This document shows, in pieces, positions 2,481 to 64,000 of a stretch of 64,000 nucleotides of DNA (position 1 is the first letter of the stretch; every line of letters starts with the position of its first letter). The stretch comes from Malacoraja senta (Eukaryota): NCBI GenBank assembly GCA_038087875.1, contig CM075988.1, forward strand, positions 6,574,001 to 6,638,000, given 5' to 3'. The notes under the pieces are model-generated. The model saw only the letters and a list, made by a program, of their open reading frames with translations, was not told where the DNA came from and made no database searches. Made by a program: the position numbers and the translations under genes.

Positions 2481-4059
2481 CTGCACTCTTTCCAGATTAA
2501 TGGCACAGATGATTGAGAGCAGTTTAGAGGATGGAAACGTAGACAAAAGAACCTAGACAGGGAGAGTTGGGAACCGCAGAGCAGGAGGCCAGCTCAGCAG
2601 GTCAGGCTGTGCATGTCCTGCAATTGCAGCGAAAGCAAAAAAGGGAAGGAAAAATGCATGCTGAACTCTCTTCCCCTCTTGCCTCATAAGGAGAGGAGAA
2701 AGAGTCCAGCGTGCCTTTTTCCTTTTAATGTAAATATAAGGTGAGATGGGACGTAAAAGACACTTGGACATGGATAGGAAAGGTTCAGACGGATATGGGC
2801 CAAGAGCAGGTTATAGAACTAGATGAGGCATCTTGGTTGGCATGGACGTGTTGGGCGAAGGGCCTGTTTTCGTGCTGTATGACTCAATGACTAATATCAC
2901 AGATAGATGACTGATTCAGACCGAGAAATCAAGTCACCTGAAATTATAGTATTCGGAATAGAGTCCTGAAGGTTACAACTAGCCAAGGTGGAAGGAGACT
3001 TGGTCTTCGTCAAGTTGGCATTGGACCTCACTGTGACACAACAGGAGGCCTCAGACTGATGGGTGAGAGTGGGAATAATACCAGCTATTCATTTCACGTC
3101 TTCACGAGGAGTTTATATGATTAAATGTATTTACAAAAGAGTACCAAATTCATGCCTGTGCAATTGAATCTTTAACAAGGTTGGTTAACATTACCTTTTG
3201 GTATTTGCATTGCGATGGTGCAACAATAAGGCTGCTGTTTCATAGATGCATGGACCGAGATCTATGTTTTCTCTATGACTGCCGAGTTTTCTTGAGTCGT
3301 CTGGTTTCCTCCAATATCCCGAGGACGTGCTGGTACATCAACTGCCTAACGTAGATAATCCCCTTAATATTGATACCTGGCAAAAAAAAATCAAAGGAAA
3401 GATGATGGTCATGAAAGAGAGTTGTAGAGTTGTAAGATGATCTATCGAATGTTGTGCATACAAAAGAAAATCTTGTGAGTTTAGAGGAACTGTTCAGGTA
3501 ATCAGTGTTAAGTAAAAGCCCAAAGATTTGTACATTTTTGCAACAAAAAGTGATGTACCTTGGCTAATGTTGATGACTATGGCCTACACTTAGTGAGTAG
3601 AAATGTAGAGGGCATTAATAATGCAAAATGGGCATTAATAATGCAAAAAAGCCCAAAAATGGAGGAATCCAGGTCATTCCTGGGGTGAGCGCGCTGTTGA
3701 GCATAATTTCTTGCAAAGTTTACATTGTTGTTTGCTCCTTTGTATCACATGAAAAAGAAGTGAAATGACTGGAGCATGGAGCAACAACGCACGTGGGAGA
3801 TGCAATGAAGGATTGTGTTCATTATAAAGAAGGGTCTCAACCCGAAACGTCACCCATTCCTTCTCTCCAGAGATGCTGCCTGTCCTGCTGAGTTACTCCA
3901 GCTTTTTGTGTCTGTGTTCATTATGATACTGCACGTGAGCTGAATAGGAATGTGACGCGTCAAGTTTGCCACCAATGTGGACAAGGCCAGATGATTGATT
4001 AGTTAGCATGTTACAACTTTATACCTGTACAGGATGAGCTCAATTATGGACCAAATAGT

Positions 4060-4605
4060 CATACCGCACGGATATAGGCCCTTCGGCCCAACTTGCCCAT
4101 GTCAAAAAGATGCCCCATCTAAGCTAGTCCCACTTGCCCAGGTTTGAGCCATATCCCTCTAAACCTTTCCTATGCATGTACCAGTCCAAATGCCTTTTAA
4201 ATGTTGTTATAGTATCTGCCTCAACTACATCCTCTGGCAACTTGTTCCATAAACCTATCACCATCTGTGTAAAAACATTGCCCCTATGGTCCGTATTAAA
4301 TCTTTCCCCTCTCACCTTAAGCTTATGTCCTCTGGTTCTTGATTCTCCTACTCCAAGTAAAATAATCTGTGCAGTCACCATATTTTCCCCCTCATGATCT
4401 TATACACCCCCATGACATCACCCCTCTGCCTCCTGCCTCCTCCCTCCTCCAAGGAATAAAGTCCTAGCCTGCCCAGCTTCTGCCTATAGCACAGACCCTC
4501 AAGTCCTGACAACATCCTTAAATCTTTCCTTTTTCCCAGCTTAACAACATCCTTCCAATAGCAGGGTGACAAACTGAACACAGTACTCCAAATGTGGCCT
4601 CATCA
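4060..4605 (-). mobile_element. CR1 LINE 3' fragment
   Basis: LGLYSLE...RTRGHKLKVRGERF...LWNKLPEDVVEA motifs. Confidence 0.8.
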
Positions 4606-5400
4606 AATGGAGAAAGAGATACTTGGATTACCACTTGAAATGGTAGGTTCCATATCAGAGATGCCTGCTAGGTTGGATTGTAGGATGCAAAGAAAGATAA
4701 TCTCATTGCATTACAACTGAGTATAGAATGTGTGTTGCTATAACTGCACGCAAACTCTGATGTCGGAAGTGTGAAAATGTGAACTATGCTTTAAATGTGG
4801 TCTATGGAACTTTCCAGTAATTATGTCTGAAATTACAGGCGAAAGCCGCAAAGGTTCGGTGTCAAAGCGTTAAACACTCATTGACGGGTGAACCGAACTT
4901 GGCTAATATAGATGAGGTATTAAAACCTCTCAGTTACTGTGTTGTTTCATCGTGGGAATAGAGGAGATATATAGAGTGGATTCATAATAACGACTACTTT
5001 TTGAGAGAGAAAATGTTTGCATAACTTTGTACTGAACACATGGAAATAGTGGCTATGAAAGCAGTCAGAATTTTTTTTATTTGTTGGCTTGGTTAGAAAC
5101 ATAGAAAAATAGGTGCAGGAGTAGGCCATTCGGCCTTTCGAACCATTCAATATGATCATGGCTGATCATCTAACATCCTACTTTTTCCCCATATCCCTAA
5201 GAGCTAAATCTAAATCTCTTGAAAACATTTGGACTGTGATCATTGGTAAGCAATTGTATTATTACTTAAACCTATCAGGTTGAGTTCCCAAGTGAACAAG
5301 TGATAGGTAGGAACCATAGTTGAGTTTTGCAGAACTATGAAATTTCTGGATGAAATCGATAACAACATGAAGTGTTCATTTTGTTAAAAGGCTTTCTGAT

Positions 5401-5653
5401 CTTCTTGCGTATGGCGTGCACAGACTAAAGTTGTAGGACAAACTCAGCGGGTGCGGCAGCATCTATGGAGCGAAGGAAATAGGCAATGTTTCGGGTCGAA
5501 ACCCTTCTTCAGACATTTTCCAGCATCTGCAGTTCCTTCTTAAAAAAAAGTTGTAGGACAACTTATTCTATTTGATCTTATTTGATTGTTCACGCCGGGT
5601 TGATTGCATTCATCGAAACAGGGCGGACTACGTGAAAGTTGCAGATTCCACCC
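5401..5653 (-). mobile_element. Short retroposon with 12-bp TSD, containing a nested Penelope-like insert (5442-5546)
   Basis: aggctttctgat at 5389-5400 and 5654-5665; inner repeat aaagttgtaggacaa at 5427-5441 and 5547-5561. Confidence 0.7.
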
Positions 5654-6865
5654 AGGCTTTCTGATAAAGTTGAATCAAGACTAGTTATTGCACCTCAAGA
5701 AACTGCAAATGCTGAAATCTTGACCAAAAATCAAAAGGCTGGAGGAACTCGATGGGTCAGGCAGCTTCTTGATGTCAGTCTCCTGTGATTGATTCAGAGA
5801 TCGAGCATGGGGAGAGAGGTGTCAGGGATAATCCAAGTGAAAGTGAAGGAAGTTGTTAATAAAGTTATTGGAATCAGTGACTTCTGCAAGGATGCAGGAG
5901 TCCTCCTTGATGGTGTTTACATAGAAACATAGAAAATAGGTGCAGGAGGAGGCCATTCGGCCCTTCGAGTCAGCACCGCCATTCATTGTGATCATGGCTG
6001 ATCGTCCCCACTCAATAACCCGTGCCTGCCTTCTCCCCATAACCCAGTGATTTGCTCCTAGATATTGACCCTTTGTTTATGAAGTTTTCAGAATCCAGTT
6101 CAGGCTTCCAGAAGTTCAAGCAAGCTTCCAGTACCTCCTTTCAAATCCAGAACCAAACATTCCAAAAGTTGATTCAATACCAAACCTGTAGAGTTTCAGA
6201 AAACTCCAAATATACAATTTTAATTGAATATGTATATTGGGGAATTACCTTTTTTTACAGTCTATCCATGTTTGCATTAATATTGTAACCAGTTAGAATC
6301 TAATTGTTTGCTTGCTACAGTGTGCCATTGATTTGATTGTTCCAGACTGTAACAAGGTTTCAATAGGTAAATAATTTTAATGTTCTGTGATGCAAATGAA
6401 GCACTTCCTTATTTTTGTAAATAAATTACAATTTTATTGCTCCCGATAATCTAGGCGCTGTCACTTCTAATCAAAGAACTTTTTCACCCGCGGTCATTTC
6501 CACTTCTCCTCTCTTCCTTTAACAGCAGATACAAAAGCTTGAAACCACATACCACCTGATTCAGGAACAGCTGCTTCCCCACTGTTATCAGACTCTCATG
6601 ATCTCAGGTCTAGTCCTAATCTTCCATTGTATCTCATTGCAGACATTGGACTTTTCCTCTGCAACTGTAATGCTTTTTTCTGCACACTCATATTTTTCTT
6701 TTTGCTCTACCCTATTATACTTCTGCATGGCTTGATTGGACTCGTGTGATGGTTTGATTTAAATGTTTAAGAAAGACCTGCAGATGCTGGAAAAATCAAA
6801 GGTAGAAAAAAACACTGGAGAAAATCAGAGGGGTGAGGCAGCATCCATGGAGCGAAGGAATAGGT

Positions 6866-6893
6866 GACGTTTCGGGTCGAGACCCTTCTTCAG
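6866..6893 (-). ncRNA. Minimal type I hammerhead ribozyme motif (intact core), antisense in a CDON intron
   Basis: Reverse complement reads gu-CUGAAGAAGGGUCUCGACCCGAAACGUC-ac. Confidence 0.6.
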
Positions 6894-8066
6894 ACTGATT
6901 AAAATGAATAACACCCAAACAAAAGCTTGTCACACTATCTCTGTGCACTTGACAATAATATACCAATGCTTGCTTTGAGGGCAGCAATCCGCTTACTTCC
7001 ATTCTTGTCCTTTCCTTGTTTTCATGTAACTTCTCTCTCTCATATGGCCATCAGCTTGCTTTTGATTCTGTTTTTGCTATTAACATGCACTATGGGGAAG
7101 TCTACACTTGCCCATTAATCTCCAGCACATGTGGGACTTGCACAGTCACTGAGGGAATGTTGAAACAAGACGCAGGAAACACCCGAGGATGGGTTTGAGT
7201 CTGATTCTCTGGAGCTGTGAGGCAGCTAGCTCACTGTTGCTTTCTCAAATGCCTCCTCATATACTTATGATGTACATACTTTTGATGCACTGTACTATTT
7301 GAAAAGCAGTGGCCAATTTGCACGCTGAATAATTCTCTTGCAATAGTCAGCTGCTTAACATGAACTCTGTAAATCAACATTATTGTGAAACAGGGTGCAT
7401 TGGGATAATATAAAATGGAGACTGACGTTGTTTTGCTTTCCAAAAATCTCTTGAAATGCTCATTACGGACGTCCTGATATCTAAAGAGTCATCAGCAATC
7501 TCAGTTCAGACTGCCTAGTCTTTATTGCAGATTAGTACTACAAACAACTTTTGTTTTATTGCATCCTTCGGCATAGTAAACAGGCAAAGGCTCCAAGCCA
7601 GCACCTCCGGGGTTAAATGATTGCAACTGGATGTTCAAGGATAAACACTTAAGAGATCAGCTGAGAGGTGCTGGCAGCCTCTTGGAATTGATAGCTTCTT
7701 TGTTATTGAGAGACTTGCCAGTTTCAACAAGTGCAGCCCATCCTCCCCTATCCTGCTGCTGCCTGTGGTATCCTAAATAAATAAACGAGAGCAAACATAG
7801 TCTGGCTTCAATTAAATAAGAAATGTTGATAGTTTTCCTTGGTTTTCTTGCAAGAGGCAGTGAGCAGAACATCTGGGGACCAGGGTGTATGTTTCCTCTG
7901 GCTCTGAATAACAATCTTACTACTTGGGACTATTGGAATTTAAATGTGCAGGGGGTGGTGGAAAGATAAAGAATGTTAAGTAGTCAGCATTCTTTCAATT
8001 GACAAAAGTGTCTATATTTTTTAGAATAATTACAATTTTTTTATTTTCTTTCCCCATTACTTTCAG

Positions 8067-10753: not shown

Positions 10754-10794
10754 GTGGGCTTTAAAGTAAAAATTATACTAATGCACTGACTGAC

Positions 10795-13149: not shown

Positions 13150-16100
13150 GTACTAACTCCTCCGCACTCCATGGTCTTGTGGTCACTTTTTTCTCTTGAC
13201 CCTGACTTTACTCAACTGAATCCTAAAACAATCCCCGCCTTTGAATTTTAGCTCAAACCGAACACTGCCAGTGCATTTGTAAGCCGTAGAGCCATAGCCA
13301 GCAGCGTAATGCCATTTTAATACTCAATCACCCTATTATAGAATCTTACACAAGCACAACCTGTGTAGATGCTTGTTTTGTACTTAATCCATTCAAACCC
13401 ATTGCTTGTCCTAATCAACCATAATGTTCCTTTCTGTTTTGTAACAATTAAACCAAAATCCTACTTTTCTCTTTATCTGTATATATAAATGTAAACATTG
13501 ATATAACCTTCTTCTAAATGGTGACATCTGTCCTTCTTTTAAAATATATAAACTTCGGTCCTATTCTATCCTCAGCCCAACTTAACTCTTCCTGCCTCAC
13601 TTTAATAAATAATAATCCTTTTCCCTTTCGCAATTTTTTCAGAAACTATTTTCACTCTACTCTTTCTCAATCCCTCCCATTAGAAACTGCTTACTCCAAG
13701 CCCTGATATAATATTAATCATGAAGGGAGCCATTCATGGACCTGCTGATTTTGTCAGTGTGCAGTAAATGGACAGATTTTTGGAGATATGGTGAAGGAAT
13801 GTGGGCGGGGATGCGTTATGAATGAGCTGAAGGGAATGGTATTGAAGCAGACAATGCTGAAAGGGACATCATGGGTACAGAAAGGTTCCTACAAGCTTGC
13901 ATTTATGAAGAGCTGAAAAGGCTGGCGGCTGCTGTGTCTTTAAGATGTACATTAGAGTTACCTAGTACCAATTTAATTCTATTCCAAACTTTATTTAATT
14001 ATTCAGTATTAGTTATCATTTTTTGAAATTGCTACAGATCTTGACAGTAAGAATAAGGGTGGGGTTATTCCGAATATTTGATTCTTTAATATCTCTGTTC
14101 AGTCGAGTTACTGAGTGGAGGCTAGCCAATTGCTATTTCGGGTTGTTGTCAACACTCTGAGCTCCTGACTGTAAAATATGTGTCCACAAATGCAGTGAAG
14201 ATTCCTTGAGTAATCACTGCCATTGCAGAACTGAACTGTCCTTAAAAATATTGTAATATATTTTCAAAAAAGATTCCAGAATTCAAATCCAGACCACTGA
14301 AATAATTAATTTGTGGTCTAGAGGGGGTGAAATGGTGGACATGTATCTCTATGGATGGGGCATGAGAGCATCAGTCACCAGTTGTTATGATTTCGGAGAT
14401 TTCGGAAGCAAGAATCAATTCAGTCAAACTTCCCAATTTGTAGATTGAAATTTAAGAAGTCAAGTTGGTTACTAAAGCACTAAAAATGTAAGTTCAGTAA
14501 AAAATTTGCTCATGACATCGATATCTAATACTAGTCCTCATACTCTGAGCCTTTATTACTACTTTGTAATTTGTCCAATAATATTGTTTTAAATTGTAGT
14601 GTCATTGCCAAATGACTAGGTCTAACACTGAAATCCATTCTGTCTTGATAATTTGTTTTTACTAACACTGTTCTTCTGTCTTCTTTGCTCTCTAAAGTTG
14701 CTCTGATTTCAGTAAGTATTATTTTGACAAAACTGATCTGTTCCTGTGTTCAAATTACTTGACACATCTGTGATGTTATTTTTACTATGCTTGCATCCTT
14801 TTGAATCAAAGTGCAAACATGCGATATGTTTCAAGTGGTCTTTTAATCACCTCAGAACCTGGTTTAAATTTCACTGATGATTGATGTAGGTGTCTTCTCT
14901 TCAGCGGCTCCAGGAAAGCGAATGAAATTAATTTGACCAGTGTCAGGCACTACCTACTGTGTACAAATATCAAATGGGAAGTCTAGATGAAAGGCCACTA
15001 GTGTGATTATTGTAGGAAATAATCGTGAATTAGGACCAGTATATTGGGGCAGTGTAAGGAACACTGTTATACCTAATTGCAATGCACCAGGTTTGATATG
15101 CTTCATGCTAGAACCGAATATTTGATATGTTAATTTGATCTTTTAACTTCATAATTAAACAAAATGCAAAATGTGCATTTCTTAAAACCTATTTATTCCA
15201 ATTCTTGTGATGCAAGGAACTGCAGGTGTAGATTTACAAAAAAAGACACAAAATGATGCAGTAACTCAGCCGGTCAGAGAGCATCTCCGTAGAGCAACCT
15301 ATCCATGTTCTCCAGAGATGCTGCCTGACCTGCTGAATTACTCCAGCACTTTGTGTCTGTTTTTATTCTGATTCTTGCCTGGTTCAGAGATGAGTTACAT
15401 GCCTGTCGTCAATAACCCCTCTTCTCCCCCCCCCCCCCCCCCCACATAAAGTTATTCTGTTTACTTACTTTACTGAGATCGTGTGGGGGGGGGGGGGGGG
15501 ACAGTTAGATCAGAAGCATCATAGAAAGTACCGGTATATTTTATGTACAAATTAACAGTATTTTCCTCACCTGACATTGTTGCTGTTTCAAAGCAAATTG
15601 TGTTTTTTTTACTGCTATATCTTCAGTAATGGATCTCTGAGACACTATTAGGCACTTAATGAGAATGCTTTGATAGGGGTTGTGTTAGCTGCCCTGCTGA
15701 TGTTGCCAGCTTTCCTTGGGCAATTATTTTCAGCATGCCCTCCCGCTCAAACAGTGATATCATCAAACGAACAATATAAATGTGGGGCCACTACTTTGGT
15801 ACAGTACTGATGTGGCACCAAAATATTCTCCTCAGCTATTTTAGCTGCAATCTCAGCTAACACATCAAGAAATTTGAACAGTGTATTTAGTAATGAATTA
15901 AGACTCTCCCTTGGCTAGTTAAGCAATAATTAAGTCTTGCTCGTGGAAGTAATGTATTACTATCAATCTGAGTTTTTAAAGGCCACTATTGTCTTTAATT
16001 GTTTTTTACTTCTGCATAATGGTAACATTGCTTGCCACTGTGTAATTCACAAAGTAGTGCCCTTGGACAAAAATTATAATTGGCTATTTGGTATTTTATA

Positions 16101-16661: not shown

Positions 16662-17825
16662 GTAATGGGCCAAATTAGTGAGGTACAAATTGCTATGAAA
16701 TGCTGGAAAGTTTGTGTGGGGAAGAAATATCTGAAGCTGCTATCTCTTGTGTTACTCTTTTGGTTTTTCTTGTGTATTTTGAGGATTTTGAATCCCTTTG
16801 GGATATAGTTCAATGGACATTAGATTCCTGTTATTTTAATGTTAAACCTAGACAATGGACATTGTCAGTGACAATGACAGTGAGCTCTTTGAATATGGTG
16901 TGTATTGTACCCAACTTAAATCCTGATTTCATGTAATTTTACATTCAGTCAAATCAATTTATAATAATTAGGAGTGGCATTTTTCTGAACAAAGTCCTGC
17001 TGGTAGAGGTAGCATTGGTTGTCCATCTCAGTTGGGATCACGAGCTTCCTTGAACCATTATAATCATATTTATAGCAGTTTGTCAGGCAAATCTGGAGAA
17101 TAATTAAACATCAACCACGTTGGTGTGCAGCAAGGGCTGCATTTAGGCTAGAAAAGGACACAAAATGGTGGAGTAACTCAGCAGGTAAAACAGCATCACC
17201 GGAGAACATGGATAGGCGACTCAGCCTGAAGAAGGGTCCCAACCTGAAATGTCATCTGTCCTTGTTCTCCAGAGATGCTGCTTGACCCGCCTAGTTACTC
17301 CAACATTTTGTGTCCTTTGGTGTAAACCAGCATGTGCAGTTCCATGTTTCTGCATTACGGCTAGCCCAAGTAAGGTTAGGGAGGATTCCCTGGGTAGAAG
17401 GATATGAGTGGGCCAATTGGATTTTTTTTTTTTTTGCCAATCAGGCAATTTTATGTCAATTCTACTGATACCAGTTTTTTTATTTCCAGTTCTCTAAAAC
17501 TGGATTCAAAATCATAAATTGCCATAATATGATTTATGCTCTCATTCTCTCTCATGAGTCCAGACTTCATAAGTACTGAACCAGTAATGTAATACTTCAG
17601 ATGGATGTTTTCCCGTCCAAATGTACCACTGGGCATCTGCCATTGCCCAGCCCTGTAATGGGGTTTCAGTTTGAGTAGTCTGAGATTTATTTTATTTCCA
17701 TTGCCCTTTTATAGAAAATCCTCATGTCCAGACAGAGGGGCTCAGCCTGTCAGTAAATTTGTCCCGTCTGCATAATGTCTGGACTAATTGTTGTTCCTTT
17801 TTTGTCGGATATTTCTGCGCCTCAG

Positions 17826-18007: not shown

Positions 18008-20669
18008 GTAAGCATTGCTGCCTCATTGTTGTTCTTCGGTCTGCTATTTTCTACCTTCCATTTTGCTCTCTCCCTCTCTGCACATGTTAATGAAGTGACA
18101 AAAATCACAGATGTAGGATGGGTGCCCCAGTTCTGCCTCGTAATCATAATAGCAAACCTGTTTCAAATCTGAAAATATTCCCAATGTATAACTCTCCTTT
18201 GCAGGATCTAAATAAATCAAGATTATTTAGCGCAGGATGTAAGTGGGATTAAAGTACTTCGCTGTATTTGAAGGTTGATAAAAAAATGCTGGAGAAACTC
18301 AGCGGGTGAGGCAGCATCTATGGAGCGAAGAAATAGGTGATGTTTTGGGTCGAGACCCTTCTTCAGACTATATTTGAAGTTAATGGTTTTGCAGAGATGA
18401 ATCCATTTTGTCTGTTTGCCTGTGTCACCTGCATTACTCTACTATTGAACTCCAGCAGGATACTGCAGAGAAATATGAAGGAATAAATGGCTCCGGATTT
18501 AGAAATTTAAAGCAACATTCTCCATTTTCCTGTATATCAGGAACTGAAAACACTCCGGCAATCTGGTATCAAAGACTCACTAATTAATGCCATACCAAAC
18601 ATGAAACGATGGACATCTTAACTTAAAAAAAATCATAATCTGTGTGGTGGCTTGAGTTAAAAGTAGATGTCATAAAAATAAATGCCTCTGTTGAAGTATG
18701 GTAACATTATGAATTCACTTTAAAAGATATTCAGATTGGTTAGGATCACTAGTCATGGGAGATCTTCAGAGAAATATTGACAACACGATAACTATAGCCT
18801 AACCACTGTGCTGGTATATTTAATTTGGAGGAAGATAAAGGCTAGAAAAATCTGGATTAATGATAGTCCGAGGGTCTCCATTGAGGTAGGAGGTAGCTGC
18901 GTTGTCTGATGATCCGGGCTATGTCCACAATTCTCTGCAATTTCCTGCGGTCTCGGATGTTAGTGTGGGAACAGGCCCTTTGGCCCACTTGGTCCACACT
19001 GGTTCTATATTAACCCACTTTCTCATCCACATCGGGGCAATTCACAGAGGCCAATTAACCTACAAACCCACACATCTTTGGGATGTGGGAGGAAACTCGC
19101 ACAAGTCATAGAGAGAACATGCAAATTCCACACTGACTGCACCCGAGGTCAGGATCAAACCTGGGTCTCTGGCGCTCAGCTCCACCAGCTTGTCACTCTC
19201 CCACTCATCGAGTCCCTACTCTTCGAAGTGAATGAGTCAATGAGATAACAGTTAATTAAGAAAACACATCTGCCTGAAAAATCCCCTGTCCAGCTCGCAA
19301 TACAGATATGAGCTTATTTGTTCTGAGTTTAACATAACAGCAAAAGATATCTTAGATGAGTCATCATCACAGTATTACAGCACAGAAGGAGACCATTTGA
19401 TCCATTGAGTTTACATTGGTTCCAAGCAGAGCCAATTCTTCCTGTGCTGCATAAAGAGAACACTTGCAGTCAGGATCAGAGCCAGGTTGCTGGAACTGTG
19501 AGGTGGCAACAAGGACTGCTATACCACTGTGTCAAACGAAGGAAGAGTAAAGTATATTTTCTGAAAATGCAAATTTAAAATAGGTAAGGGTCTTTAAGCA
19601 AAGGAATCGTTGGAATGTTTATCCTTGGTATTTGCTAGCAGGTCTCTTTCCTCCACCCCAATCCCCCCCGCTCACCATACCAATTACTTCTCAAGGTTTG
19701 CCTCATCTCAACCAGAGAGTGGTGAGTCTGTGGAATTCTCTGCCTCAGATGGCGGTGAAGGCGGGTTCTCTGGATGCTTTCAAGAGAGAGCTAGATAGGG
19801 CTCTTTAAAAATATGGGGATATGGGGAGAAGGCAGGATTGGGGATGATCAGCCATGATCACATTGAATGGTGATCGAAGGGCCTACTCCTGCACCTATTG
19901 TCTACTTTGAAAAAATGGTCACTTCACTAAGTTTTGTTTTGAATGAAAGCAAAATGGATTTTGTACCATTGCTTAAAATTAGAACTCAAAATGGGGAATT
20001 TGGTGATGCAAGAGAAAATCTAGAACTTTTGAAACTAAAATTATTTAGTTTGGAGGACATCTTCAAATTCCCATCCTTTTAGCAATTTTAATCGTGGCAG
20101 AATTTGCTTGCTGAGGGCGAGGTTAGAAGCTCTTTATCAGTCATAAAATGCATTATGCTATGTATTTTCTCTTCAGTCACCCAGACAACTCGTGAAATCC
20201 AAGCAAGTGCTCAATTACAATGAGCCCTTTCCTGCCAGCAAGCCAAATAGTTTAATCTCTCGTTAAATGAATGTTGTATCAGCTTTTCTTTTAGTTTAAA
20301 AGACAATTTTTATTATAAGCTATTTCTGAATTGTTTGATCCCTGAAGATTAGTAGGAGGCAAGGCATTGGACAAATATTTTACTCTTCTCTCATGTTTCC
20401 CTCCAAGGTGAATAGATGAGCTGAGAAGACCCAAGATTATATGCAGTGATATCTCAATACTATATAGAGATAAAATTGTATCCTGATTATTACAAAGGTT
20501 CTGTGAAGACTGACTCTGAGAAGCTAGTTCGAACACACATCTGTTCCCTGAAGCTCAGCTATTAAATACTCTTAACAAGCATTTGCTATTTAATCAATAA
20601 CGTCAGGGTTATTCACAACTGTAGACAATTGAATTTTAGTTAACAGAGTAATGGCTGCCCAGTTCCTTA

Positions 20670-47500: not shown

Positions 47501-47526
47501 TGCTGATAATGTGTTTAATAAATAGC

Positions 47527-48024: not shown

Positions 48025-49804
48025 TCTTCATTTAATGTGCACGTCTCACGAAGATCTAAACAAAATGACTTATCTTCAAATCTTCAATTACTAATAATCA
48101 TTGACCTGTTTTTACAGTCCAGGGATATAAATTCAATTACATTTTGGTGCCTGGGAAAGAATTACCGAATAATTCAATAATCTGGATTTTAAATAAAAGA
48201 CTAATCTCAGTAGTGTAACAGGAAACTACCAAACAGTTGTCAAAACCCACTCTTGTCCATCAATATCTTTCCAGGAGGAATCTTGCCCATCCAACCTCCA
48301 TATGATTCCACACCCACCAAGACTGACTCTTAATTGCTCCTCCAAAGCCATATAACATCAAAGCATGTATAGAAAGGAACTGCAGATGTTGTTATGTGCT
48401 GTGTATGCAATAATTAATCAGTGTTGTCAATGCCTACACAAAAAAACACACAAAACTTTCCACCCAGAACATTAGCTACATTAACTGGTTAGTCCAGTTT
48501 ATATAAATAAAATCTATTATTATTATTATTACCTAATCCACAATAGGTACACATTTTATGTATACAAAGTGCTGGAGAAACTCAGTGGGTCAGGCAGCAT
48601 CACTGGAGAAAAAGGGTGAGTGATGTCTGGTTCCTTCCCACACTCCAGGTTTGTAGGCTAATAGGCTTGGTAAAAGTTGTAAATTGTCACTGTGGTGTGT
48701 AGAATAGTGTTAGTGTCGCTGGTCGGCACGGACTCAGTGGGCCGAAGGGCCTGTTTCTGCACTGTATCTCCAAATTAAACTAAACTAAATGCTTTCCTTC
48801 ATTTTACCTGGCTTTCGAATCTTTGATTTTTTTTACCATTCTATTTTTTTTTAATCACCTTCCATATTCCTGCAACAACACCTCGACAGCACTGAACTGC
48901 TGCTTGGCATAATTTTACCTTTTAATCTTACCCTCCGCTGATATTGTTTGCTATTGATTTAACTTTGTTGGCTCAATAACATGACGTCACCTAGGTACTG
49001 CCCAGATGAGGAGTTCTACATGATTTTACCAGGTTGTATGCAAATCAAAACATTTCACTGTACCTTGGTACACGTGACAATAAAGTATTGTATTATTGAA
49101 TCATCCAAGAGGTCTAATTTTGGAGATCCCCATTTCGTTTATTGGAAATATATTTTGTCTGATCCTCCTTGAATGTGTCCACGTGCCTCGTCTCAGCGGA
49201 ATTTTTACTATGGTCCACCTCTATTCTTCCAATAATTAATCAAAGTCTAACAGAATTATAATTACAATCTCTAAAACATTCTCTCCATCCCAGGCACAGG
49301 TATGTCTTCTAGAATGTTTAAGAAGGAACTGCGGATGCTGGAAAATCGAAGGTAGACTAAAGTGCTGGAGAAACTCAGCGGGTGCAGCAGCATCTATGGA
49401 GCGAAGGAAATAGGCAACGTTTTGGGCCAAAACCCTTCTTCAGACTGATGTAGGGTGGGGGTAGGGGGGGGGGTCAGGGAGAAGAAAGGAGAAAGGAAGA
49501 GGAGGAGCCCGAGGGCTGAGGGAGAATCACAGAGGGGGAGCAATTAGAGAGGAGGTTGTAAAACTGTCTTCAGAGGGAGGAGGAGAACTTTTTCTTCAAA
49601 GTAGGCATACCTTGAGGAGATTTCGCAGTGGAGTAGTCAGTGTTTAAGAAGGAACTGCAGATGCTGGAAAATCAGAGGTAGACAGAAGTGCTGGAGAAAC
49701 TCAGCGGGTGCAGCAGCATCTATGGAGTGAAGGAAATAGGCAATGTTTCGGGCCGAAACCCTTCTTCAGACTGATGTAGAAGATGGCTACAAAATGCTGG
49801 AGTA

Positions 49805-51406
49805 CAGTGGCTTGCAAAAGTATTCATACCCCTTGAACTTTTCCACATTTTGTCACGTTACAACCACAAACGTAAATGTATTTTATTGGGATTTTATGTG
49901 ATAGACCAACACAAAGTGGCGCATAATTGTGAAGTGGAAGGAAAATGATACATGGTTTTCAAATTTTTTTACAAATAAAAAACTGAAAAGTGTGGCGTGC
50001 AAAAGTATTCAGCCCCCTTTACTCTGATACCCCTAAATAAAATCCAGTGCAACCAATTGCCTTCAGAAGTCACCTAATTAGTAAATATAGTCCACTTGTG
50101 TGTAATCTAATCTCAGTATAAATACAGCTGTTCTGTGAAGGCCTCAGAGGTTTGTTAGAGAACATTAGGGAACAAACAGCATCATGAAGCCCAAGGAACA
50201 CACCAGACAGGTCAGGGATAAAGTTGTGGAGAAATTTAAAGCAGGGTTAGGTTATAAAAAAAATCCCAAGCTTTGAACATCTCACGGAGCACTGTTCAAT
50301 CCATCATCCGAAAATGGAAAGAGTATGGCACAACTGCAAACCTACCAAGACATGGCCGTCCACCTAAACTGACAGGCCGGGCAAGGAGAGCATTGATCAG
50401 AGAAGCAGCCAAGAGGCCCATGGTAACTCTGGAGGAGCTGCAGAGATCCACAGCTCAGGTGGGAGAATCTGTCCACAGGACAACTATTAGTCGTGCACTC
50501 CAGCATCTGCAGTGGCAAGAAGAAAGCCATTGTTGAAAAAAAGCTATAAGAAGTCCCGTTTGCAGTTTGCCACAAGCCATGTGGGGGACACAGCAAAAGT
50601 GGAGGAAGGTGCTCTGGTCAGATGAGACCAAAATTGAAGTTTTTGGCCTAAATACAAAACGCTATGTGTGGCGGAAAACTAACACTGCACATCACCCTGA
50701 ACACACCATCCCCACTGTGAAACATGGTGGTGGCAGCATCATGCTGTGGGGATGCTTTTCTTCAGCAGGGACAGGGAAGCTGGTCAGAGTTGATGGGAAG
50801 ATGGATGGAGCCAAATACAGGGCAATCTTGGAAGAAAACCTGTTAGAGTCTGCAAAAGACTTGAGACTGGGGCGGAGGTTCACCTTCCAGCAGGACAACG
50901 ACCCCTAAACATACAGCCAGAGCTACAATGGAATGGTTTAGATCAAAGCATATTCATGTGTTAGAATGGCCCAGTCAAAGTCCAGACCTAAATCCAATTG
51001 AGAATCTCTGGCAAGACTTGAAAATTGCTGTTCACAGACGCTCTCCATCCAATCTGACTGAGCTCGAGCTATTTTGCAAAGAAGAATGGGCAAAAATTTC
51101 AGTCTCTAGATGTGCAAAGCTACTAGAGACATACCCCAAAAGACTTGCAGCTGTAATTGCAGCGGAAGGTGGTTCTACAAAGTATTGACTCAGGGGGGCT
51201 GAATACTTTTGCACGTGACACTTTTCAGTTTTTTATTTGTAAAAAAATTTGAAAACCATGTATCATTTTCCTTCCACTTCACAATTATGCACCACTTTGT
51301 GTTGGTCTATCACATAAAATCCCAATAAAATACATTTACGTTTGTGGTTGTAACGTGACAAAATGTAGAAAAGTTCAAGGGGTATGAAAACTTTTGCAAG
51401 CCACTG
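49805..51406 (+). mobile_element. Full-length Tc1-family (Passport-like) DNA transposon, inactivated
   Basis: TA target duplication (49803-04 and 51407-08); ~210 bp terminal inverted repeats beginning CAGTGGCTTGCAAAAG with an internal repeat of the caaaagtattca motif (IR/DR type); transposase inside. Confidence 0.95.
50184..51188 (+). pseudogene. Tc1 DDE transposase pseudogene (several frameshifts)
   Basis: MKPKEHTRQVRDKVVEKF...GRPPKL...WSDETK...FQQDNDP...[11 protein letters not shown]...GGSTKY*, spread over ORF-track fragments 50273-50536, 50567-50908 and 50928-51188. Confidence 0.93.
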
Positions 51407-51408
51407 TA

Positions 51409-51785
51409 ACTCAGCGGGTCAGGCAGCATCTCTGGCGAAAAGAAATAGGTGACATTTCGGGTCGAGACCCTTCTTCAGACTGAGTGAGGGTCAGGGGGAA
51501 GGGAACTAGAGATATGAAAAGGTACAAAGAACATATGAATGAAAGGCATGCAAAAGGACAACTCAAAGCCAGCCAGCTGATCAAGGAAAAGGTGGAGCCC
51601 ACAATGGTCCATTGTTGGCTGTGGAGAAGGTGATAACGAATGGATACAAACAGTGAAATTCAGCAGGACGACAGTGAAACTAGGGTGGGGGAGGGACGGA
51701 GAGAGAGGGAATGCAAGGGTTACTTGAAGTTACAAAAATCAATATTCATACCGCTGGGTTGTAAGCTGCCCAAGCGAAATATGAA
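51409..51785 (-). mobile_element. Penelope-like element 3' end (GIY-YIG C-terminus, 3' UTR, hammerhead motif)
   Basis: Minus strand reads IFRLGSLQPSGMNIDFCNFK* (typical PLE endonuclease end), then UTR, then CUGAAGAAGGGUCUCGACCCGAAAUGUC at 51478-51451. Terminus is interrupted by the Tc1. Confidence 0.8.
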
Positions 51786-51899
51786 CTAAAACTCCACAGT
51801 AGCACTCCTATGAACTGATTCTAGACAATAGGTGCAGGAGTAGGCCATTCGGCCCTTCGAACCAGCACCGCCATTCACTGTGATCATGGTTAATAAGAT

Positions 51900-52123
51900 G
51901 TTTAAGAAGGAACTGCAGATGCTGGAAAATCGAAGGTAGACAAAAGTGCTGGAGAAACTCAGTGGGTGCAGCAGCATCTATGAAGCGAAGGAAATGGGCA
52001 ATGTTTCGGGCCGAAACCCTTCTTCAGACTGAAGGAAGGGTTTCGGCCCAAAACGTTGCCTATTTCCTTCGCTCCATAGATGCTGCTGCACCCGCTGAGT
52101 TTCTCCAGCACTTTTGTCTACCT
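51900..52123. mobile_element. Penelope-like terminal repeat in inverted (palindromic) configuration
   Basis: Two ~95-nt arms inverted around 52028; flanked by the 14-bp direct repeat atggttaataagat (51886-51899, 52124-52137). Confidence 0.8.
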
Positions 52124-52371
52124 ATGGTTAATAAGATTCTCTTTTAAGTTTTTAGGAAAGCATTTTTGAAATTCTGCACCTTCCGCACCTTTCAATATTG
52201 TGTCCAATTTCAGATTGGTGGAAACACCTACAATTACTGTCTCGTCAGAATGTTTCTGACATATTTGCACTTACCTTTCATACAAAGAGGATGCTGCAGT
52301 AAAACCCTATCTGCAATTAATTGTCAGGACAATCCGCTCGTAATTGCTGCTGATTGTGAGTAAAGTTGAAA

Positions 52372-53955: not shown

Positions 53956-54708
53956 CTTTTCCCATCCACTCTAGTACACGTAGTCTCACACACGTGGAGG
54001 GAACTTGCTTAACTGTTCCCTAACGCAGTGAAAACTAACATAAACATCACACCGAGCAGGGAGAGGCGTGAGAGCAATGGCCCAGGAAAGTGTCAGATGA
54101 GTTGTTTATTTGAAAAACTCAACATTTGAAGAAGAATTAAACACAGTTAGTTTATGAGTGGGGTAAGAAGAAAAAAAGATTTATGCCCGACAGTTCATTT
54201 AGCAGACGGTGCAGCTGACAGCTCGGGAGATGGGAAGCTGAACACACTCGTAAGAGCGAACGTGTCAGTGTTTTGTTAAGTCAATTCCACTTGGGATAAT
54301 TCAACATTATTAAACTGACGGTTTTTCACAAAGGCTTTTCTTGCAGTGACTGCCCTTGGCCTCCCTGAGCTCTACCCCACACCAACGTATTCATGCAGTC
54401 TGCCCGGCCTCTGTTCACTTCCACCATGTGGGATGGGTCCAAAATAAATTAATTCCTGTCTCACTTTGTCCTAGACTGATTAACTCTGCTAATGCACTGA
54501 ATCTCACTTTTAAAGAGCCCGGCAGCTCGGTTGGTCGGTTGTGGGGAGGTGAGGTGAGGGTAGATTTTTTTTCTTTGGGATGATTATTTAAAGATAAACT
54601 CTAAGACAGTCTGGGATGAGGGTTTCAGAGCTGGGAGTGTGTCAGACTTTAGTCACCCTGTGTTCTGAGTTCTGGAGGAAAGAACTGGAAATGCTGGTTT
54701 AAATCAGG

Positions 54709-54736
54709 CTGAAGAAGGGTCTCGACCCGAAACGTC
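54709..54736 (+). ncRNA. Minimal type I hammerhead ribozyme motif (intact core) in a Penelope-like repeat
   Basis: CUGAAGA-A-GGGUC(UC)GACCC-GAAA-C-G-UC: conserved core, stem II, loopless palindromic ACGU stem III and GUC cleavage triplet. Stem I is weak. Confidence 0.6.
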
Positions 54737-55829
54737 AACCTATTCCTTCTCTCCAGAGATGCTGCCTGTCCCGCTGAGTTACTCCAGCATCTTGTGTCTA
54801 TCTTCAGGAGGAGACCACAACAGGAGGTGACTTCAGCCAGAGCTAGGTGCGGGGGAGCCTAGTGTACACAGCTTCATCACAGCCCCAGAAACTAGACTCA
54901 CACTCACCCTCATATCCCTCTGACTCACAACACGGTGACACAGCCAGTGGAGCCACAGCTCACAGGTCCCGTGACACAGGTTCAATCCTGACCTCGGGCG
55001 TTGACTATGTGGAGTTTGCACGTTCTCCCTCTGGCTAACAGTTGAGGTGATTTGTCCTGGGTTTTTTTTAGTCTCTTACCCCTCACCCACCCCCCCTCCC
55101 CACCCACAATCAGTCTGAAGATGGGTCCAGACCCGAAACATCATCTATCCATGGTCTCCAGAGATTAGTTTAACCCGCTGAGTTACTCCAGCACTTTGCG
55201 TCTGTCTGTGACATAAATCAGCATCTGCAGTTCCTTTTTATTTCATAGACTGCGGGCTGGTAGATGAATTAGCTGCTATCGTGTTGGTGAGTGGTAGAGT
55301 CTCTCGGGGTGTTGATGGGAATGTGGGGGAGAATGAAATGGGGTTAGTAAGAATCCATGTGAGTGGCCACATGTGGGTCGGCATAGACTGGTGGGCCGAA
55401 AGGCCTGTTTCTCTTCTGCATGACCCTATGACTGTGTAAGGAGAGAAGTGATAATGATAATCACAGCATGCACTAAGCACTTCACAGCCAATCTTTACTA
55501 AAATTGCCATGACAATTTTACCAAAGCCAATTAACCTACAAACCTGGAGAAAACCCACACGGTCACAGGGAGAACGTGCAAACTCTGTCCAGAAAGCACC
55601 CATAGTCAGGGTCAAACCAGGGTCTCTGGCGATGGAAGGCAGAAACTCTATTGCTTTTGGATGGCTCAGGTCCATGTTTTAATATCGCTATGTCCCCACA
55701 CCGAGTCTCCTTGACAATGGAAGGGTATGTGATAGGAAGAGGATTGTCCTAGTTTTTTGTAGTTCCCAATCTATAACTCGCAGTTTTCATTTTCATTACT
55801 GCTTCTGGGAAGGTAACAGCCAGGAGTTC

Positions 55830-56310: not shown

Positions 56311-56404
56311 GACTCTCTTGAATCCAATGAAGGAGAATGGATGATATGGAGCATCTGTAAAGAAATCCCTGTGACTTTAGTCACATACATTACTTTAGTT
56401 TACT

Positions 56405-57912: not shown

Positions 57913-58504
57913 TAGCGCGATTATTGGACTTAAGTTACTTAAACACTGGAGAAGATAAACTATTTCAGATATCTTGCTTTAGACATCTCCATGCTGGGCT
58001 TTTGAAGCAAAGAAACTTTCCCCAGGTTTTACTCAATCCACTAACGTAGAGTCTACACATTTTGTAAACCAACAAAGACAGACACAAAATGCTGGAGTAA
58101 CTCCGTCAATCAGGCAGCACCTTTGGAGAAAAGGAATAGGTGACCTTTCAGGACGAAACACTTCTTCAGACCAACCAACAAGCTGGATAATGTAATACAA
58201 CTGGCCTATCTGTGAATTTGACTGGTTTACAGTGAACTAAAAAAGCAATGGAAGAATAGACCTTTCAGGCCCAACTTGGTTGGTGATTCCATAGTTGATC
58301 TGCTGCACAACACTTTGATACACTTCCTCAACAACATGTATTCCATCTCAAAAACTCCAGTTTGACATCCAGCATCCACCTGAGAAAGAGAAATTCATTT
58401 TCCATAACCCACTGTATGACTCTAACTTCAGGAATAGTTTCCTTCCTGATCTGGATTTCTCAAACAGGAGAGATGGTGAAGAACCATTAGATCAATCAGC
58501 ATTT

Positions 58505-59378: not shown

Positions 59379-60147
59379 TAGGGAGGAACTGCAGATGCTG
59401 GTTTAAACCAAAGATAGACACACAAAGCTGGAGTAACTCAGCGGGGCAGGCAGCATCTCTGGAGAGAAGGAATTGGTGACGTTTCGGGTCGAGACCCCTT
59501 TGTGTTCTATGTTCTATGTTGTGTGTTAAATACCCGTCATCATGTGCTTCACGTGTCACACTATCCCCACTGTACACTGGCGACTCCAAGATCAGACACT
59601 GTGGCCACTGAATCCTCACAGATCTAGTTTAGTCCAGTTTAGTTTATTGTCACTTGTACCGAGGTTCAGTGAAAAGCTTCTGTTGCGTGCTAACCAGTCA
59701 GCGGAAAGACAATGCATGATTACAATCGAGCCGCTCACAGTGTACAGATACATGATAAATGGGTACACAAAAATGCTGGAGAAACTCAGCGGGTGCAGCA
59801 GCATCTATGGAACGAAGGAAACAGGCAATGTTTCGGGCCGAAACCCTTCTTCAGACCCCCCATCTCATGATAAAGGGGTAACGTTTAGTGCGAGATAAAG
59901 TAAAAATCCGATCAAAGATAGTCCGAGGATCACCAATGAGGTAGATCGTACTAGGTAGGAGCTGCGGATGCTGGTTTACACCAAAGGTAGCCACAAAATA
60001 CTGGAGTAACTCAGCGGAGAGAAGGAATTGGTAACATTTTGGGTCAAGACCTTTCTTCAGACTGAATCTGAAGAAGTCTGAAGAAATCTGAATCTTCAGA
60101 GTCAGAAGAAGGGTCTCGATTCGAAACGTCACCCATTCCTTCTCTCC

Positions 60148-62086: not shown

Positions 62087-63111
62087 GAAACGTCACCCAT
62101 TCCTTCTCTCCAGAGATGCTACCTGTCCCGCTGAGTTACTCCAGCATTTTGTGTCTATCTTCGAGGCAGAGAGTGGTTCAGGACTGCTCAGGTTGCGGTG
62201 GGATGGTTGTGGTGACGGAGAGCCGGCCGGCAGCCTCATCAGGTCGGTGGCAAGAGTTGGCCCAGACCCGCGAGCCCTCGGCACTCCCTCCAGCCCACAC
62301 GGCAACAGGACGCACAAACCGCCCGTTGCTCTTTTGCAAACTCATTCTCTCCCTTCCCCCGCTCCCACCTCGCCCTCCCCTCCCCCCTGCAACCACAGAT
62401 ACACTGAGCCGAACACACTGAATAAAAAGCTGTAGGAATTTTGAAAACTCCAGTATGAACTCAATGGCCATTGTGCTCTGTTAGGAATGTCAGCGAGCAG
62501 TCAACTGTTAAATAGAGGGCCATTCAATGGCCTGGCCTATTTCCCTGAGAAGGCATTCATTTCCCAATGGCTGTGGACAATGGCCAGTATTGTGGCGTGC
62601 CATGGCCTAGGGTTTTTACTTGTCCTTCTCTCTAAGGAATTCCAATACGCTGTCAATTGCTGTTAACATCTCGGCCTCTGGCAATAAAATGCAGTTATTA
62701 GTTAATAAGCAGATCATTGTGGACAAACAAGGTCTCTCCAACGATCCTGGGCTGCTATTATTCCCCGCACTCGGCTTTGATTTCAGATTCTCCCCATGAT
62801 TATTTTGCTTTTAACTGATTTTCATTTCCCCAGCTGCAAAACCTTTCTGAGTTTCTGCACATTTTATGAACTCCCCAGAGGTGCGGAGAATGATCTGCCA
62901 CAGTGCATGGCGGATGAAAGAGGAACATAAAACCACACCCCCCCCCCCTTCCCTCCTACACCCCCCCCTCCCCCGCCTCCCACCCAGACAGAGTGTCCAG
63001 GCAGTGTGCCTGCCCCTGCTCTTCCTCTGTCGTACATCCCCTGAAGCTGCCGCCTCGCACAGGGTTACAGCTGTGCAAGCAGTCCACACACCAAGTCCAC
63101 ACTTTGGGCAG

Positions 63112-63310
63112 TCATGGTGGCACAGCTGGTAGAGCTGCTGGCTCACAACGCCAGAGACTTGGGTTCGATCCTGACCTCGGCCGCTGTCTGCGCGGAGCTT
63201 GCACGTTCTCCCCGTGACCGCGTGGGTTTCCTCTGGGTGCTCCGGTTTCCTCACACATCCCAAAGACGTGCGGGTTTGTAGGTCAATTGGCTTCTGTGAA
63301 ATTGTCTGTA
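63112..63310 (+). mobile_element. V-SINE 5' part
   Basis: tggcacagctggtagag, gggttcgatcc, central domain. Confidence 0.75.
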
Positions 63311-64000
63311 AAATGTGTTTACTTTATTTTGGTTCATTGTCATGTGTGGAAAGCTTTATTCTTGCGGACTATCCAGTCAGTGGAAAGACTGTTTATGACT
63401 ACAACCAAGTCGTCCACAGTGTACAGATATAGAATAAAGGGAATAACGTTTAGTGCAAGATAATGTCTAGTAAAGTCTGATTAAAGATAGTCCCAGGGTC
63501 TCCAATGGGGTAGATGGTAGGTTAGGACTGCTCTCTAGTTGGTGATAGGATGGTGCAGTTGCCTGATAAAAGCTGAGAAGAAATTGTCGCTGGGAGTGGA
63601 TGAGAAAGTGGGATAGCAGAGAACTAGTGTGAATGGGTGATCAATGGTCGACTTGGTGGGCCGAAGAGCCTGTTTCCAAACTGTATCCTTTAATCAATGA
63701 AGGCAGGGATGATCAGTGACACCGGGATAGAGTAGAACACAATCTGGAGAAGGTCGGAGGTGGACGGCAGCCCTTCACCCTGGCCCTTTGCTCAGTTTTG
63801 CATCTGTGCTGGTGGATCTGAGTGCTGGTATTATCCGATATTTGAACACATTGAGCAATGTTATTATATAACACCACACGATCACAGTACAGCAGGCAAA
63901 CAGCGTCGCTCTTCTGAAAAAGCCATTTTAAACTTTGTCTACTTTCTCTGAAGAAGGGTCTCGACCCCAAGTGTCACCCATTCCTTCTCTCCAGAGATGT

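What the first reader, a model, noticed from the sequence alone, without database searches (positions are those of the whole stretch)
3826..63999. Dispersed hammerhead-ribozyme-bearing Penelope-like retroelement family (about 20 copies in 64 kb)
Seen: a recurrent ~130-nt repeat contains CUGAAGA-A-[GGGUC UC GACCC or GGGU UUCG GCCC]-GAAA-CG-U(C/U). Cores are intact at 6866-6893(-) and 54709-54736(+) and near-intact at 51451-51478(-), 55115(+), 17226(+), 5486(-), 49742(-), 52000(-) and 59826(-). Degenerate or truncated cores occur near 3827, 18340, 21910, 37535, 44583, 47822, 49416, 52029, 58142, 59478, 60033, 60103 and 63948. Longer copies join the motif to a GIY-YIG C-terminus (IFRLGSLQPSGMNIDF). 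Many inserts have 9-15 bp TSDs (3814/3913, 5427/5547, 18265/18371, 31035/31142, 51886/52124). Known: Penelope-like elements carry minimal type I hammerheads whose palindromic ACGU stem III favours cleavage as dimers, and an extra A after A9 occurs in some natural hammerheads. Inference: one copy per ~3 kb would imply a very large genome-wide ribozyme-motif load, mobilised as SINE-like stubs.
Basis: partly seen in the sequence, partly recalled or inferred. Interest (0 to 1): 0.72.

Follow-up and report, generated by a model that had tools for sequence, protein, structure and literature searches.

The report
Penelope-element stubs with minimal hammerheads
The repeat is real and very abundant, and it is most likely the short end piece of a Penelope-like jumping gene carrying an already described minimal hammerhead-ribozyme motif; nearly all copies here are mutated and probably inert, so it is a large but ordinary example of a known kind.

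Summary
Observation confirmed. There are 32 repeat segments in 64 kb (0 in a reversed control); 22 span the hammerhead core; all five target-site duplications are real. The motif fits the published minimal hammerhead of Penelope-like elements (PLEs; Cervera and De la Pena 2014). The copies show PLE hallmarks: a ~30-nt tail on one end only, head-to-head inverted pairs, 9-16 bp duplications, and a GIY-YIG-like C-terminus upstream in 2 copies (motif recalled; database searches blank; no RT recovered).

Corrections: helix II is 4 bp plus a tetraloop, helix I only 2 bp, and helix II shows no two-sided covariation. Only 1 of 22 cores is fully intact, mostly through CpG decay. The stubs look like solo pseudo-LTRs, not a separate SINE.

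Most useful addition: 13 of 22 copies start 1-10 nt before the core, at an Initiator-like TCAGTCT, and keep the uncut core. This suggests copying of uncleaved RNA up to its start. A rough depth ratio suggests 10^5-10^6 copies in related genomes. Cleavage is untested. The scan noted the same kind before in three windows from other (shark) genomes. New member of a known kind.

The parts
6866..6895 (-). Only fully intact minimal hammerhead: 11 catalytic bases, 4-bp helix II, ACGU palindrome, 2-bp helix I; predicted cut after 6866
6755..6906 (-). Tailed solo-pLTR stub with 11-bp TSD (1 mismatch; 6755/6896)
54670..54812 (+). Stub with inverted tail at its 5' side and 10-bp TSD (1 mismatch); core 54709-54736 intact but helix I broken
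51406..51785 (-). Longest copy: GIY-YIG-like C-terminus (51782-51723), stop codon, 244-nt pyrimidine-rich spacer, TCAGTCT boundary, core 51478-51451 (AUGU instead of ACGU); split at a TA by a Tc1-like element
44427..44757 (+). Unit with 10-bp TSD: last codons of the ORF, 110-nt spacer, core at 44583 (G12>A), short filler, second partial pLTR
49312..49796 (-). Partial tandem, 326-nt period: core 49769, tail, ~115-nt extension beyond the tail (possible ORF start), spacer, core 49443 (G12>A), tail
51886..52137 (.). Head-to-head inverted pLTR pair joined at the TCAG-N-CTGA palindrome, tail on one arm only, 14-bp TSD
17137..17364 (.). Head-to-head pair, tail on one arm, 15-bp TSD (2 mismatches); core at 17226(+)
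15192..15377 (.). Head-to-head pair without cores, tail on one arm, 16-bp TSD (2 mismatches); the + arm begins exactly at the predicted cut site
37200..37623 (.). Head-to-head pair, tail on one arm, split by a CR1-like 3' fragment; decayed core at 37536(+); no TSD found
5427..5561 (-). Stub (core 5512-5485, ACAU) with inverted tail and 15-bp TSD
31035..31155 (-). Core-less stub with inverted tail and 14-bp TSD
3814..3924 (+). Tail-less stub starting inside the core, 12-bp TSD
18265..18379 (-). Tail-less stub starting 3-4 nt before the core (G12>A, ACAU), 9-bp TSD
58067..58181 (-). Tail-less stub, decayed helix II, 9-bp TSD
59751..59874 (-). Tail-less stub (core 59854, ACAU), 9-bp TSD
59955..60147 (.). 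Head-to-head pair (cores 60060(-), 60103(+)); second arm cut off by another retroelement
47680..47915 (+). Longer copy with pyrimidine-rich spacer; core 47822 (G8>A, G12>A)
55070..55240 (+). Longer tailed copy; core 55115 (ACAU)
21849..22010 (-). Longer decayed copy; core 21937
59385..59501 (-). Tailed stub starting inside the core
63947..63999 (+). Decayed stub cut by the window end

Best explanation
The repeat carries the known minimal type I hammerhead motif and is most likely the pseudo-LTR of an endonuclease-encoding Penelope-like retrotransposon, the short copies being solo pseudo-LTRs that were probably reverse-transcribed by the element's protein from uncleaved RNA and have since decayed, mainly at CpG sites. 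Shown: motif, three subfamilies, two classes of 3' end about 30 nt apart, tail on exactly one outer end of two-ended units, TSDs, 5' ends clustered just before the core, loss of G12 and the ACGU palindrome at CpGs. Inferred, by analogy with the anole element PAc: the protein nicks both strands of an AT-rich target 9-16 bp apart and primes reverse transcription at two internal sites (about +72 to +95 and +120 to +128 from C3). The two cDNAs run towards the RNA 5' end and join head-to-head at short homologies. Priming at the 5' pLTR ends at the RNA start and gives a stub; longer copies need priming at a downstream pLTR. The hammerhead of active masters would cut after GUC/GUU weakly, and only as a dimer or with protein help; it is not needed to make the stubs, and single genomic stubs are probably inert.
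For: Motif equals the published consensus CUGANGA-H-G..C-GAAA-N-palindrome-U-H; 2-bp helix I is listed there for several species. Reads and contigs from four runs restore C15.2 and G16.2 as majority letters (table 3, places 51454 and 52002). 7 of 7 two-ended units with both outer ends readable have one tailed and one tail-less end, the PLE signature. TSDs: 9 of 24 units against 2.7% by chance. Contig loose ends extend the ORF remnant upstream with an R-K-L-E-E-Q-H-L reading (581 and 614 records, table 7), giving a Glu...GxN spacing that I recall for GIY-YIG C-termini. The hammerhead part is 4.5-17 times deeper than the ORF end in three runs and 22 against 2 in the window. 13 of 22 core copies begin at -10 to -1 (p 1.7e-6 against a uniform start over 69 nt, 0.012 over 30 nt), while 1-2 of 32 segments begin at the cut site. 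CpG positions are mutated in 32 of 132 cells, other catalytic positions in 5 of 206 (p 4e-10). None of 18 non-CpG differences among subfamily majorities hits the 11 catalytic bases (p about 0.05). PAc needs protein for cleavage and inserts uncleaved RNA.
Against: No RT and no complete GIY-YIG domain were found: no genome held, blank Pfam, PDB and homologue searches, and two spurious hits in the large library. No two-sided covariation in helix II. The hammerhead fold is not favoured in silico: helix II probability about 0.1 and helix I under 0.001 in the intact copy, and a helix-II-swapped duplex (-21.1 kcal/mol) beats the double-hammerhead (-6.1). No Rfam hammerhead match at E up to 5. The ungapped 5'-end measure alone cannot separate stubs from long copies, and loose ends at 51483 show that many reads continue into a divergent C-rich spacer, so the depth drop there is not proof of a fixed start.
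Confidence: 0.8

Rival explanations
1. Same element, but the shared 5' boundary is a reverse-transcriptase stop or repair junction (C-rich spacer, TCAG-N-CTGA palindrome, microhomology with AT-rich targets), not a transcription start; stubs are ordinary 5'-truncated copies.
For: The boundary abuts a pyrimidine/C-rich tract (0.74-0.89 pyrimidine in the six long copies). Inverted pairs join at the palindrome. The 6866 TSD supplies ATCA identical to the element's -6 to -3. The Inr pattern YYANWYY (recalled) is a weak motif.
Against: Six copies pass the boundary and end at scattered upstream places. Boundaries also fall at -1 to -4 in units with no inverted partner. All six long copies keep YYANWYY exactly there. 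Inr-like motifs in pLTRs are described.
Confidence: 0.4
2. The boundary is the 3' splice site of a pLTR intron (pyrimidine tract, CAG|U), with a donor overlapping the ORF stop codon, as in Drosophila virilis Penelope where the intron ends at helix I.
For: Sequence shows AA|GTAA and AG|GTAG at the stop and a pyrimidine tract plus CAG before the core. Precedent.
Against: No joint 51479/51724 among the 15 joints shown for four runs (1,921 not shown), and RNA reads run on through the stop into the spacer. Splicing would give stubs a shared upstream exon, which they lack.
Confidence: 0.12
3. The stubs are an independent non-autonomous family (SINE or non-LTR retrozyme) that spreads through ribozyme-cut, possibly circular, RNA.
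For: About ten stubs per ORF end. One tandem pair with a 326-nt period, close to the 363-bp mean reported for retrozymes of one chondrichthyan. Retrozymes are reported to derive from pLTRs.
Against: Copies are dispersed, not arrays. Both cores of the pair are defective. Stubs start before the core, not at the cut site. No tRNA-like head in any copy. Each subfamily also has long copies.
Confidence: 0.1
4. The motif is a catalytically dead vestige (or chance look-alike) kept as part of a promoter or protein-binding site.
For: 2-bp helix I, no covariation, unfavourable fold, no read-end pile at the cut site in one poly(A) run. Published PLE hammerheads are weak, and 8 of 9 Xenopus retrozyme dimers did not cleave.
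Against: All 11 catalytic bases, the extra base after A9, G10.1-C11.1 and the palindrome are kept across three subfamilies, whose changes fall in loop II, at H17 (C/U) or give U-G wobbles. 0 descriptor hits in 60 shuffles.
Confidence: 0.25

Closest known systems
Minimal hammerheads (min-HHR) in pLTRs of metazoan Penelope-like elements (Cervera and De la Pena 2014, PMC4209133)
   Same: CUGANGA-H core, G10.1-C11.1, GAAA-C-G-U-H with palindromic ACGU, short helix I, mostly single dispersed motifs from truncated PLEs, some in opposite-strand pairs.
   Different: Helix II (4 bp) and helix I (2 bp) are at the short end of the published range. No cartilaginous fish in the supplement file searched. 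Apparent load far above the published 4,000 (coelacanth) and 9,000 (Xenopus), though those were strict-descriptor counts and only 2-4 of 22 copies here pass such a descriptor.
PAc, Poseidon element of Anolis carolinensis (Frangieh et al. 2024, PMC11167929)
   Same: Two 3' end classes about 30 nt apart (tail), AT-rich targets, uncleaved RNA as template, hammerhead at the pLTR.
   Different: PAc's ORF starts at stem II; here no ATG is there in 21 of 22 copies and the ORF start is unresolved. The C-terminal peptide looks more like the Neptune clade (recalled, untested). No protein recovered here.
Drosophila virilis Penelope and Adineta vaga Penelope pLTRs (PMC2377424, PMC3846280)
   Same: 2-bp helix I (D. 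virilis), head-to-head inverted pLTRs with palindromic junctions, optional 31-bp tail, 8-10 bp TSDs, Inr-like motif in the pLTR, solo pLTRs.
   Different: The D. virilis intron ending at helix I has only a sequence look-alike here, without spliced reads. Solo pLTRs are rare in those genomes and dominant here.
Metazoan non-LTR retrozymes (PMC7229834; bioRxiv 10.64898/2026.07.22.740005)
   Same: Type I hammerhead in a pLTR-derived non-coding repeat; one 326-nt tandem pair here.
   Different: Retrozymes are tandem arrays, mostly with canonical helices and circular RNAs; these are dispersed monomers and inverted pairs with a minimal motif.

Membership tests
PLE minimal type I hammerhead | CUGANGA and GAAA-N-N-U-H catalytic bases | tested here: met
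   Majority letter at all positions; 10 of 22 copies keep all 11
PLE minimal type I hammerhead | Unpaired base after A9 and G10.1-C11.1 pair | tested here: met
   A at 9.1 in 20 of 22; G-C in 17 of 22, G-U in 2
PLE minimal type I hammerhead | Palindromic 15.2-16.2 (ACGU), no loop III | tested here: met
   C-G in 9 of 22, U-G in 5, broken in 8; majority C and G in four runs
PLE minimal type I hammerhead | Short helix I (2-5 bp in the published alignment) | tested here: met
   2 bp only; none reaches 3 bp; 2-bp cases listed
PLE minimal type I hammerhead | Compensatory changes in helix II | tested here: not met
   0 of 4 pairs change on both sides, one-sided U-A/U-G only; 404 of 500 shuffles reach the score; sample is 22 copies of three close subfamilies
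PLE minimal type I hammerhead | Self-cleavage as dimer or with protein | not testable with these tools
   No read-end pile at the site in one poly(A) run of a related organism, which is insensitive
EN+ Penelope-like element | [quoted passage not shown] | tested here: met
   7 of 7 readable two-ended units
EN+ Penelope-like element | Head-to-head inverted and partial-tandem pLTRs | tested here: met
   5 inverted pairs, 2 partial tandems
EN+ Penelope-like element | Target-site duplications at AT-rich sites | tested here: met
   9 of 24 exact at 9 bp or more against 2.7%; 4 more with mismatches
EN+ Penelope-like element | C-terminal GIY-YIG endonuclease upstream of the 3' pLTR | tested here: inconclusive
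   20 codons in the window plus loose ends fit a recalled motif; Pfam, PDB and homologue searches blank or spurious
EN+ Penelope-like element | Telomerase-like RT in the same ORF | not testable with these tools
   No long copy in the window, no genome, no collection hit
Non-LTR retrozyme | Tandem array with a complete hammerhead in each unit | tested here: not met
   One 326-nt pair, both cores defective
Non-LTR retrozyme | Circular RNA | not testable with these tools
   Only a poly(A) run was laid
tRNA-derived SINE | tRNA-like pol III head | tested here: not met
   No tRNA match on any copy; the only weak tRNA hit (63111) belongs to another repeat
Rfam hammerhead families | Covariance-model match | tested here: not met
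   None among 25 matches at E up to 5

The most novel reading that the evidence does not exclude
The stubs are strong-stop-like products: priming at the element's 5' pLTR copies only the first 90-130 nt of an uncleaved transcript that starts about 3 nt before the hammerhead core. Some 10^5-10^6 genomic copies would then map the PLE transcription start, both priming sites and the staggered cut in vivo, show that the hammerhead sits at the cap (cutting off a ~31-nt leader rather than resolving tandems), and make this lineage the largest known reservoir of hammerhead motifs, silenced by methylation of the CpG at catalytic G12.
Probability: 0.3. Interest if true: 0.55.

Novelty: new member of a known kind. 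Interest (0 to 1): 0.27.

Why it matters
The motif and its PLE link were published in 2014, so the kind is not new. What remains of value is scale and anatomy. The role of PLE hammerheads is an open question. A family with very many short, TSD-bounded copies lets 5' ends, priming sites and cut stagger be read from one genome, and here the copies point to uncleaved RNA as the template, matching the in vitro PAc result in another vertebrate class. For annotation, most such motifs should not be counted as active ribozymes.

Tried and rejected
Whole genome: none held. Exact 29-nt core in metagenome and viral collections: 0 hits each. Rfam: no hammerhead match. ORF remnant: Pfam 0 families, PDB 0, word-index search none, large-library phmmer 2 hits, both repetitive proteins matching the non-element flank. 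The language-model atlas gave no result, so that comparison is open. Post-tail reading frame at 49719-49516(-): no homologue and no second copy in the window. Run search: no RNA holder listed on record; one raw RNA run added by study was laid. Intron hypothesis: no supporting joint shown. Strand bias of cores: 10 plus, 12 minus, p 0.83. Whole-stub folding is no better than shuffles (z 0.10 and 1.54). A long stem joining +47..55 to the tail forms in 4 of 7 tailed copies, with other folds in the remaining 3 and no covariation tested. The p value printed (0.014) was not used, because two CpG columns of the palindrome do vary; the corrected value is about 0.05. Lunse et al. 2017 was not held. Earlier-findings look-ups by sequence and place were empty.
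Full report
Setting. The window holds exons of a CDON-like gene on the + strand (best PDB match CDON, E 9.7e-21 and 4.7e-08) among many repeats: two RVT_1 remnants and a DDE_3 transposase. From recall these look like the CR1, HE1 SINE, Tc1 and Rex/Babar repeats of a cartilaginous fish; that assignment comes from no call. No whole genome is held.

Observation. All named cores are present. A profile from 7 window copies finds 32 segments, 0 in the reversed window, covering 4.7% of it. 22 span the core. A minimal descriptor matches 4 of the 22 and nothing in 60 shuffled windows; 2 of the 4 have a 2-bp helix I and none has 3 bp. Rfam gives no hammerhead at E up to 5. The five TSDs are exact (12, 15, 9, 14, 14 bp). 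9 of 24 units have 9 bp or more against 2.7% of random intervals, one of them in a microsatellite; four more appear with 1-2 mismatches.

The motif. It reads CUGAAGA-A-GGGU-(tetraloop)-RCCC-GAAA-CG-U-Y. This fits the >80% consensus in the supplement of Cervera and De la Pena 2014, which also lists 2-bp helix I cases. Helix II is 4 bp; helix I is GU/AC or GU/GC. Ten of 22 copies keep all 11 catalytic bases, 2 of these keep ACGU, and one (6866-6893, minus strand, antisense to the host gene) also keeps helix I. Decay is concentrated at CpGs: 32 of 132 cells against 5 of 206 at other catalytic positions (p 4e-10). G12 and the palindrome both sit in CpGs. Laid reads and contigs show C15.2 and G16.2 as majority letters in all four runs, so the masters had intact cores. 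Three subfamilies differ at 21 of 81 columns; 3 are CpG columns, and none of the other 18 hits a catalytic base (p about 0.05). Against function: no helix II pair changes on both sides and 404 of 500 shuffles reach the covariation score; the hammerhead fold is rare in the computed ensemble and a helix-II-swapped duplex is more stable than the double hammerhead.

The element. 3' ends fall in two classes, about +72 to +95 and about +120 to +128 from C3. In 7 of 7 two-ended units with both outer ends readable (5427, 15192, 17137, 31035, 37200, 51886, 54670) one end has the tail and the other lacks it; an eighth (59955-60147) is cut by another element and was not counted. An optional 30-40 bp tail on one end, head-to-head inverted pLTRs and short TSDs are the described PLE signature (passages), and the two ends match the two internal RT start sites of the anole element PAc. 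Two copies reach the end of an ORF, 244 and 110 nt before the core. Loose ends of 581 and 614 contigs continue it upstream as R-K-L-E-E-Q-H-L. The Glu...GxN pattern fits a GIY-YIG C-terminus as I recall it, nearer Neptune than Poseidon, but every database test was blank or spurious and no RT was recovered. Membership therefore rests on DNA anatomy and the motif.

The stubs. Six of 22 core copies continue into a pyrimidine-rich spacer. Thirteen begin at -10 to -1, 12 of them with a TSD, inverted partner, inverted tail or tandem junction marking the boundary; three begin inside the core or at a rearranged junction. The clustering is unlikely under uniform starts (p 1.7e-6 over 69 nt, 0.012 over 30 nt). 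Only 1-2 of 32 segments begin at the predicted cut. So the template usually still had its core. All six long copies have YYANWYY (recalled Initiator pattern) at the boundary, and Inr-like motifs are described in pLTRs. PAc needs sequence downstream of its priming site, which a 5' pLTR has and a 3' pLTR lacks; priming there would give a short cDNA ending at the RNA start. That step is inference. A polymerase stop or microhomology at the same place is a live rival: the ungapped end measure is crude, and many laid reads continue into divergent C-rich spacers. An intron ending at the same CAG, as in D. virilis, has no supporting joint among the 15 shown (1,921 not shown).

Abundance and RNA. The run search listed 23 holders in 12 studies, none on record as RNA. 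On 631 nt, which also include a CR1-like stub, 185,866 and 248,713 contigs were laid in two runs, and 29,476 of 7,335,232 raw RNA records in a third. The hammerhead part is 4.5-17 times deeper than the ORF end. Summed contig depth over the depth of single listed contigs gives 4x10^5 to 1.6x10^6; the tool states that this is no copy number, so it is an order of magnitude only, in line with one core per 2.9 kb here. RNA reads lie about equally on both strands at the core (3,061 and 3,331) and show no pile of ends at the cut site. This fits passive transcription in host RNA, but the library is poly(A), only about 6% was read, and it comes from a related organism.

Known context. Cervera and De la Pena report about 4,000 and 9,000 motifs in coelacanth and Xenopus, mostly single, with no monomer activity and low dimer activity. 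PAc's hammerhead cleaves only with protein and is dispensable for insertion in vitro. A 2026 preprint reports retrozymes in one chondrichthyan and derives them from pLTRs. Eight full-text searches listed no paper devoted to this family in cartilaginous fishes; Repbase and Dfam could not be searched. What I saw: PMC4209133, parts 1-2 of 4 and supplement file 2 (part 2 of 3 plus search passages; file 1 not searchable); PMC11167929, parts 1-2 of 4 and two figure supplements with little text (the sequence file could not be read, and would allow a direct protein comparison); 10.64898/2026.07.22.740005, parts 1-3 of 5, supplements not seen (they may hold the chondrichthyan family); passages only of 10.1101/2021.04.23.441226, PMC3846280, PMC2377424, PMC6155905, PMC6765202, PMC7229834; Lunse et al. 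2017 only as a citation. Three earlier notes of this scan describe the same kind in shark genomes; they are unchecked and were not used as support.

Verdict. A real, very abundant, mostly decayed family of PLE pseudo-LTR stubs with the known minimal hammerhead. New member of a known kind; interest 0.27. The end-mapping argument is the part worth a genome-wide test.

Noticed in passing
window 8030-38235 (+): Exons of a CDON-like gene (FN3 domains, transmembrane and cytoplasmic parts); the repeats up to about 38 kb are intronic. Last exons not located.
   Followed up: partly
window 49796-51415: Tc1-like DNA transposon with 229-nt inverted repeats (95%) and a frameshifted DDE_3 transposase, inserted at a TA inside a PLE copy.
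   Followed up: partly
window 49640-49525 (-): About 115 nt beyond the tail that stay in frame apart from two TGA codons; possibly the start of the PLE ORF. No homologue found and no second copy in the window.
   Followed up: partly
window 51723 and 51480 (-); 44472 and 44581 (+): Splice-donor-like sequence overlapping the ORF stop codon and acceptor-like CAG just before the core; no spliced joint seen.
   Followed up: partly
window 37280-37507 (+): CR1-like 3' fragment inserted inside an inverted PLE pair.
   Followed up: partly
window 60150-61900 (+): Broken RVT_1 retroelement (Rex/Babar-like by recall) that cuts off the 60103 copy.
   Followed up: no
window 45875-47557 (-): Broken CR1-like reverse transcriptase remnant.
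   Followed up: no
window 28984-29101: Near-perfect ~115-nt hairpin, hit only by unrelated miRNA models below their cut-offs; MITE-like.
   Followed up: no
window 44678-44706 (+): About 30 nt of non-element filler between two pLTR pieces inside one 10-bp TSD.
   Followed up: no
window 22330, 52394, 54963, 56839, 63146 (+) and others: A separate SINE family with a weak tRNA-like head, HE1-like by recall.
   Followed up: no
window 53300-53900: Long (CT/CCCTCT)n low-complexity tract.
   Followed up: no
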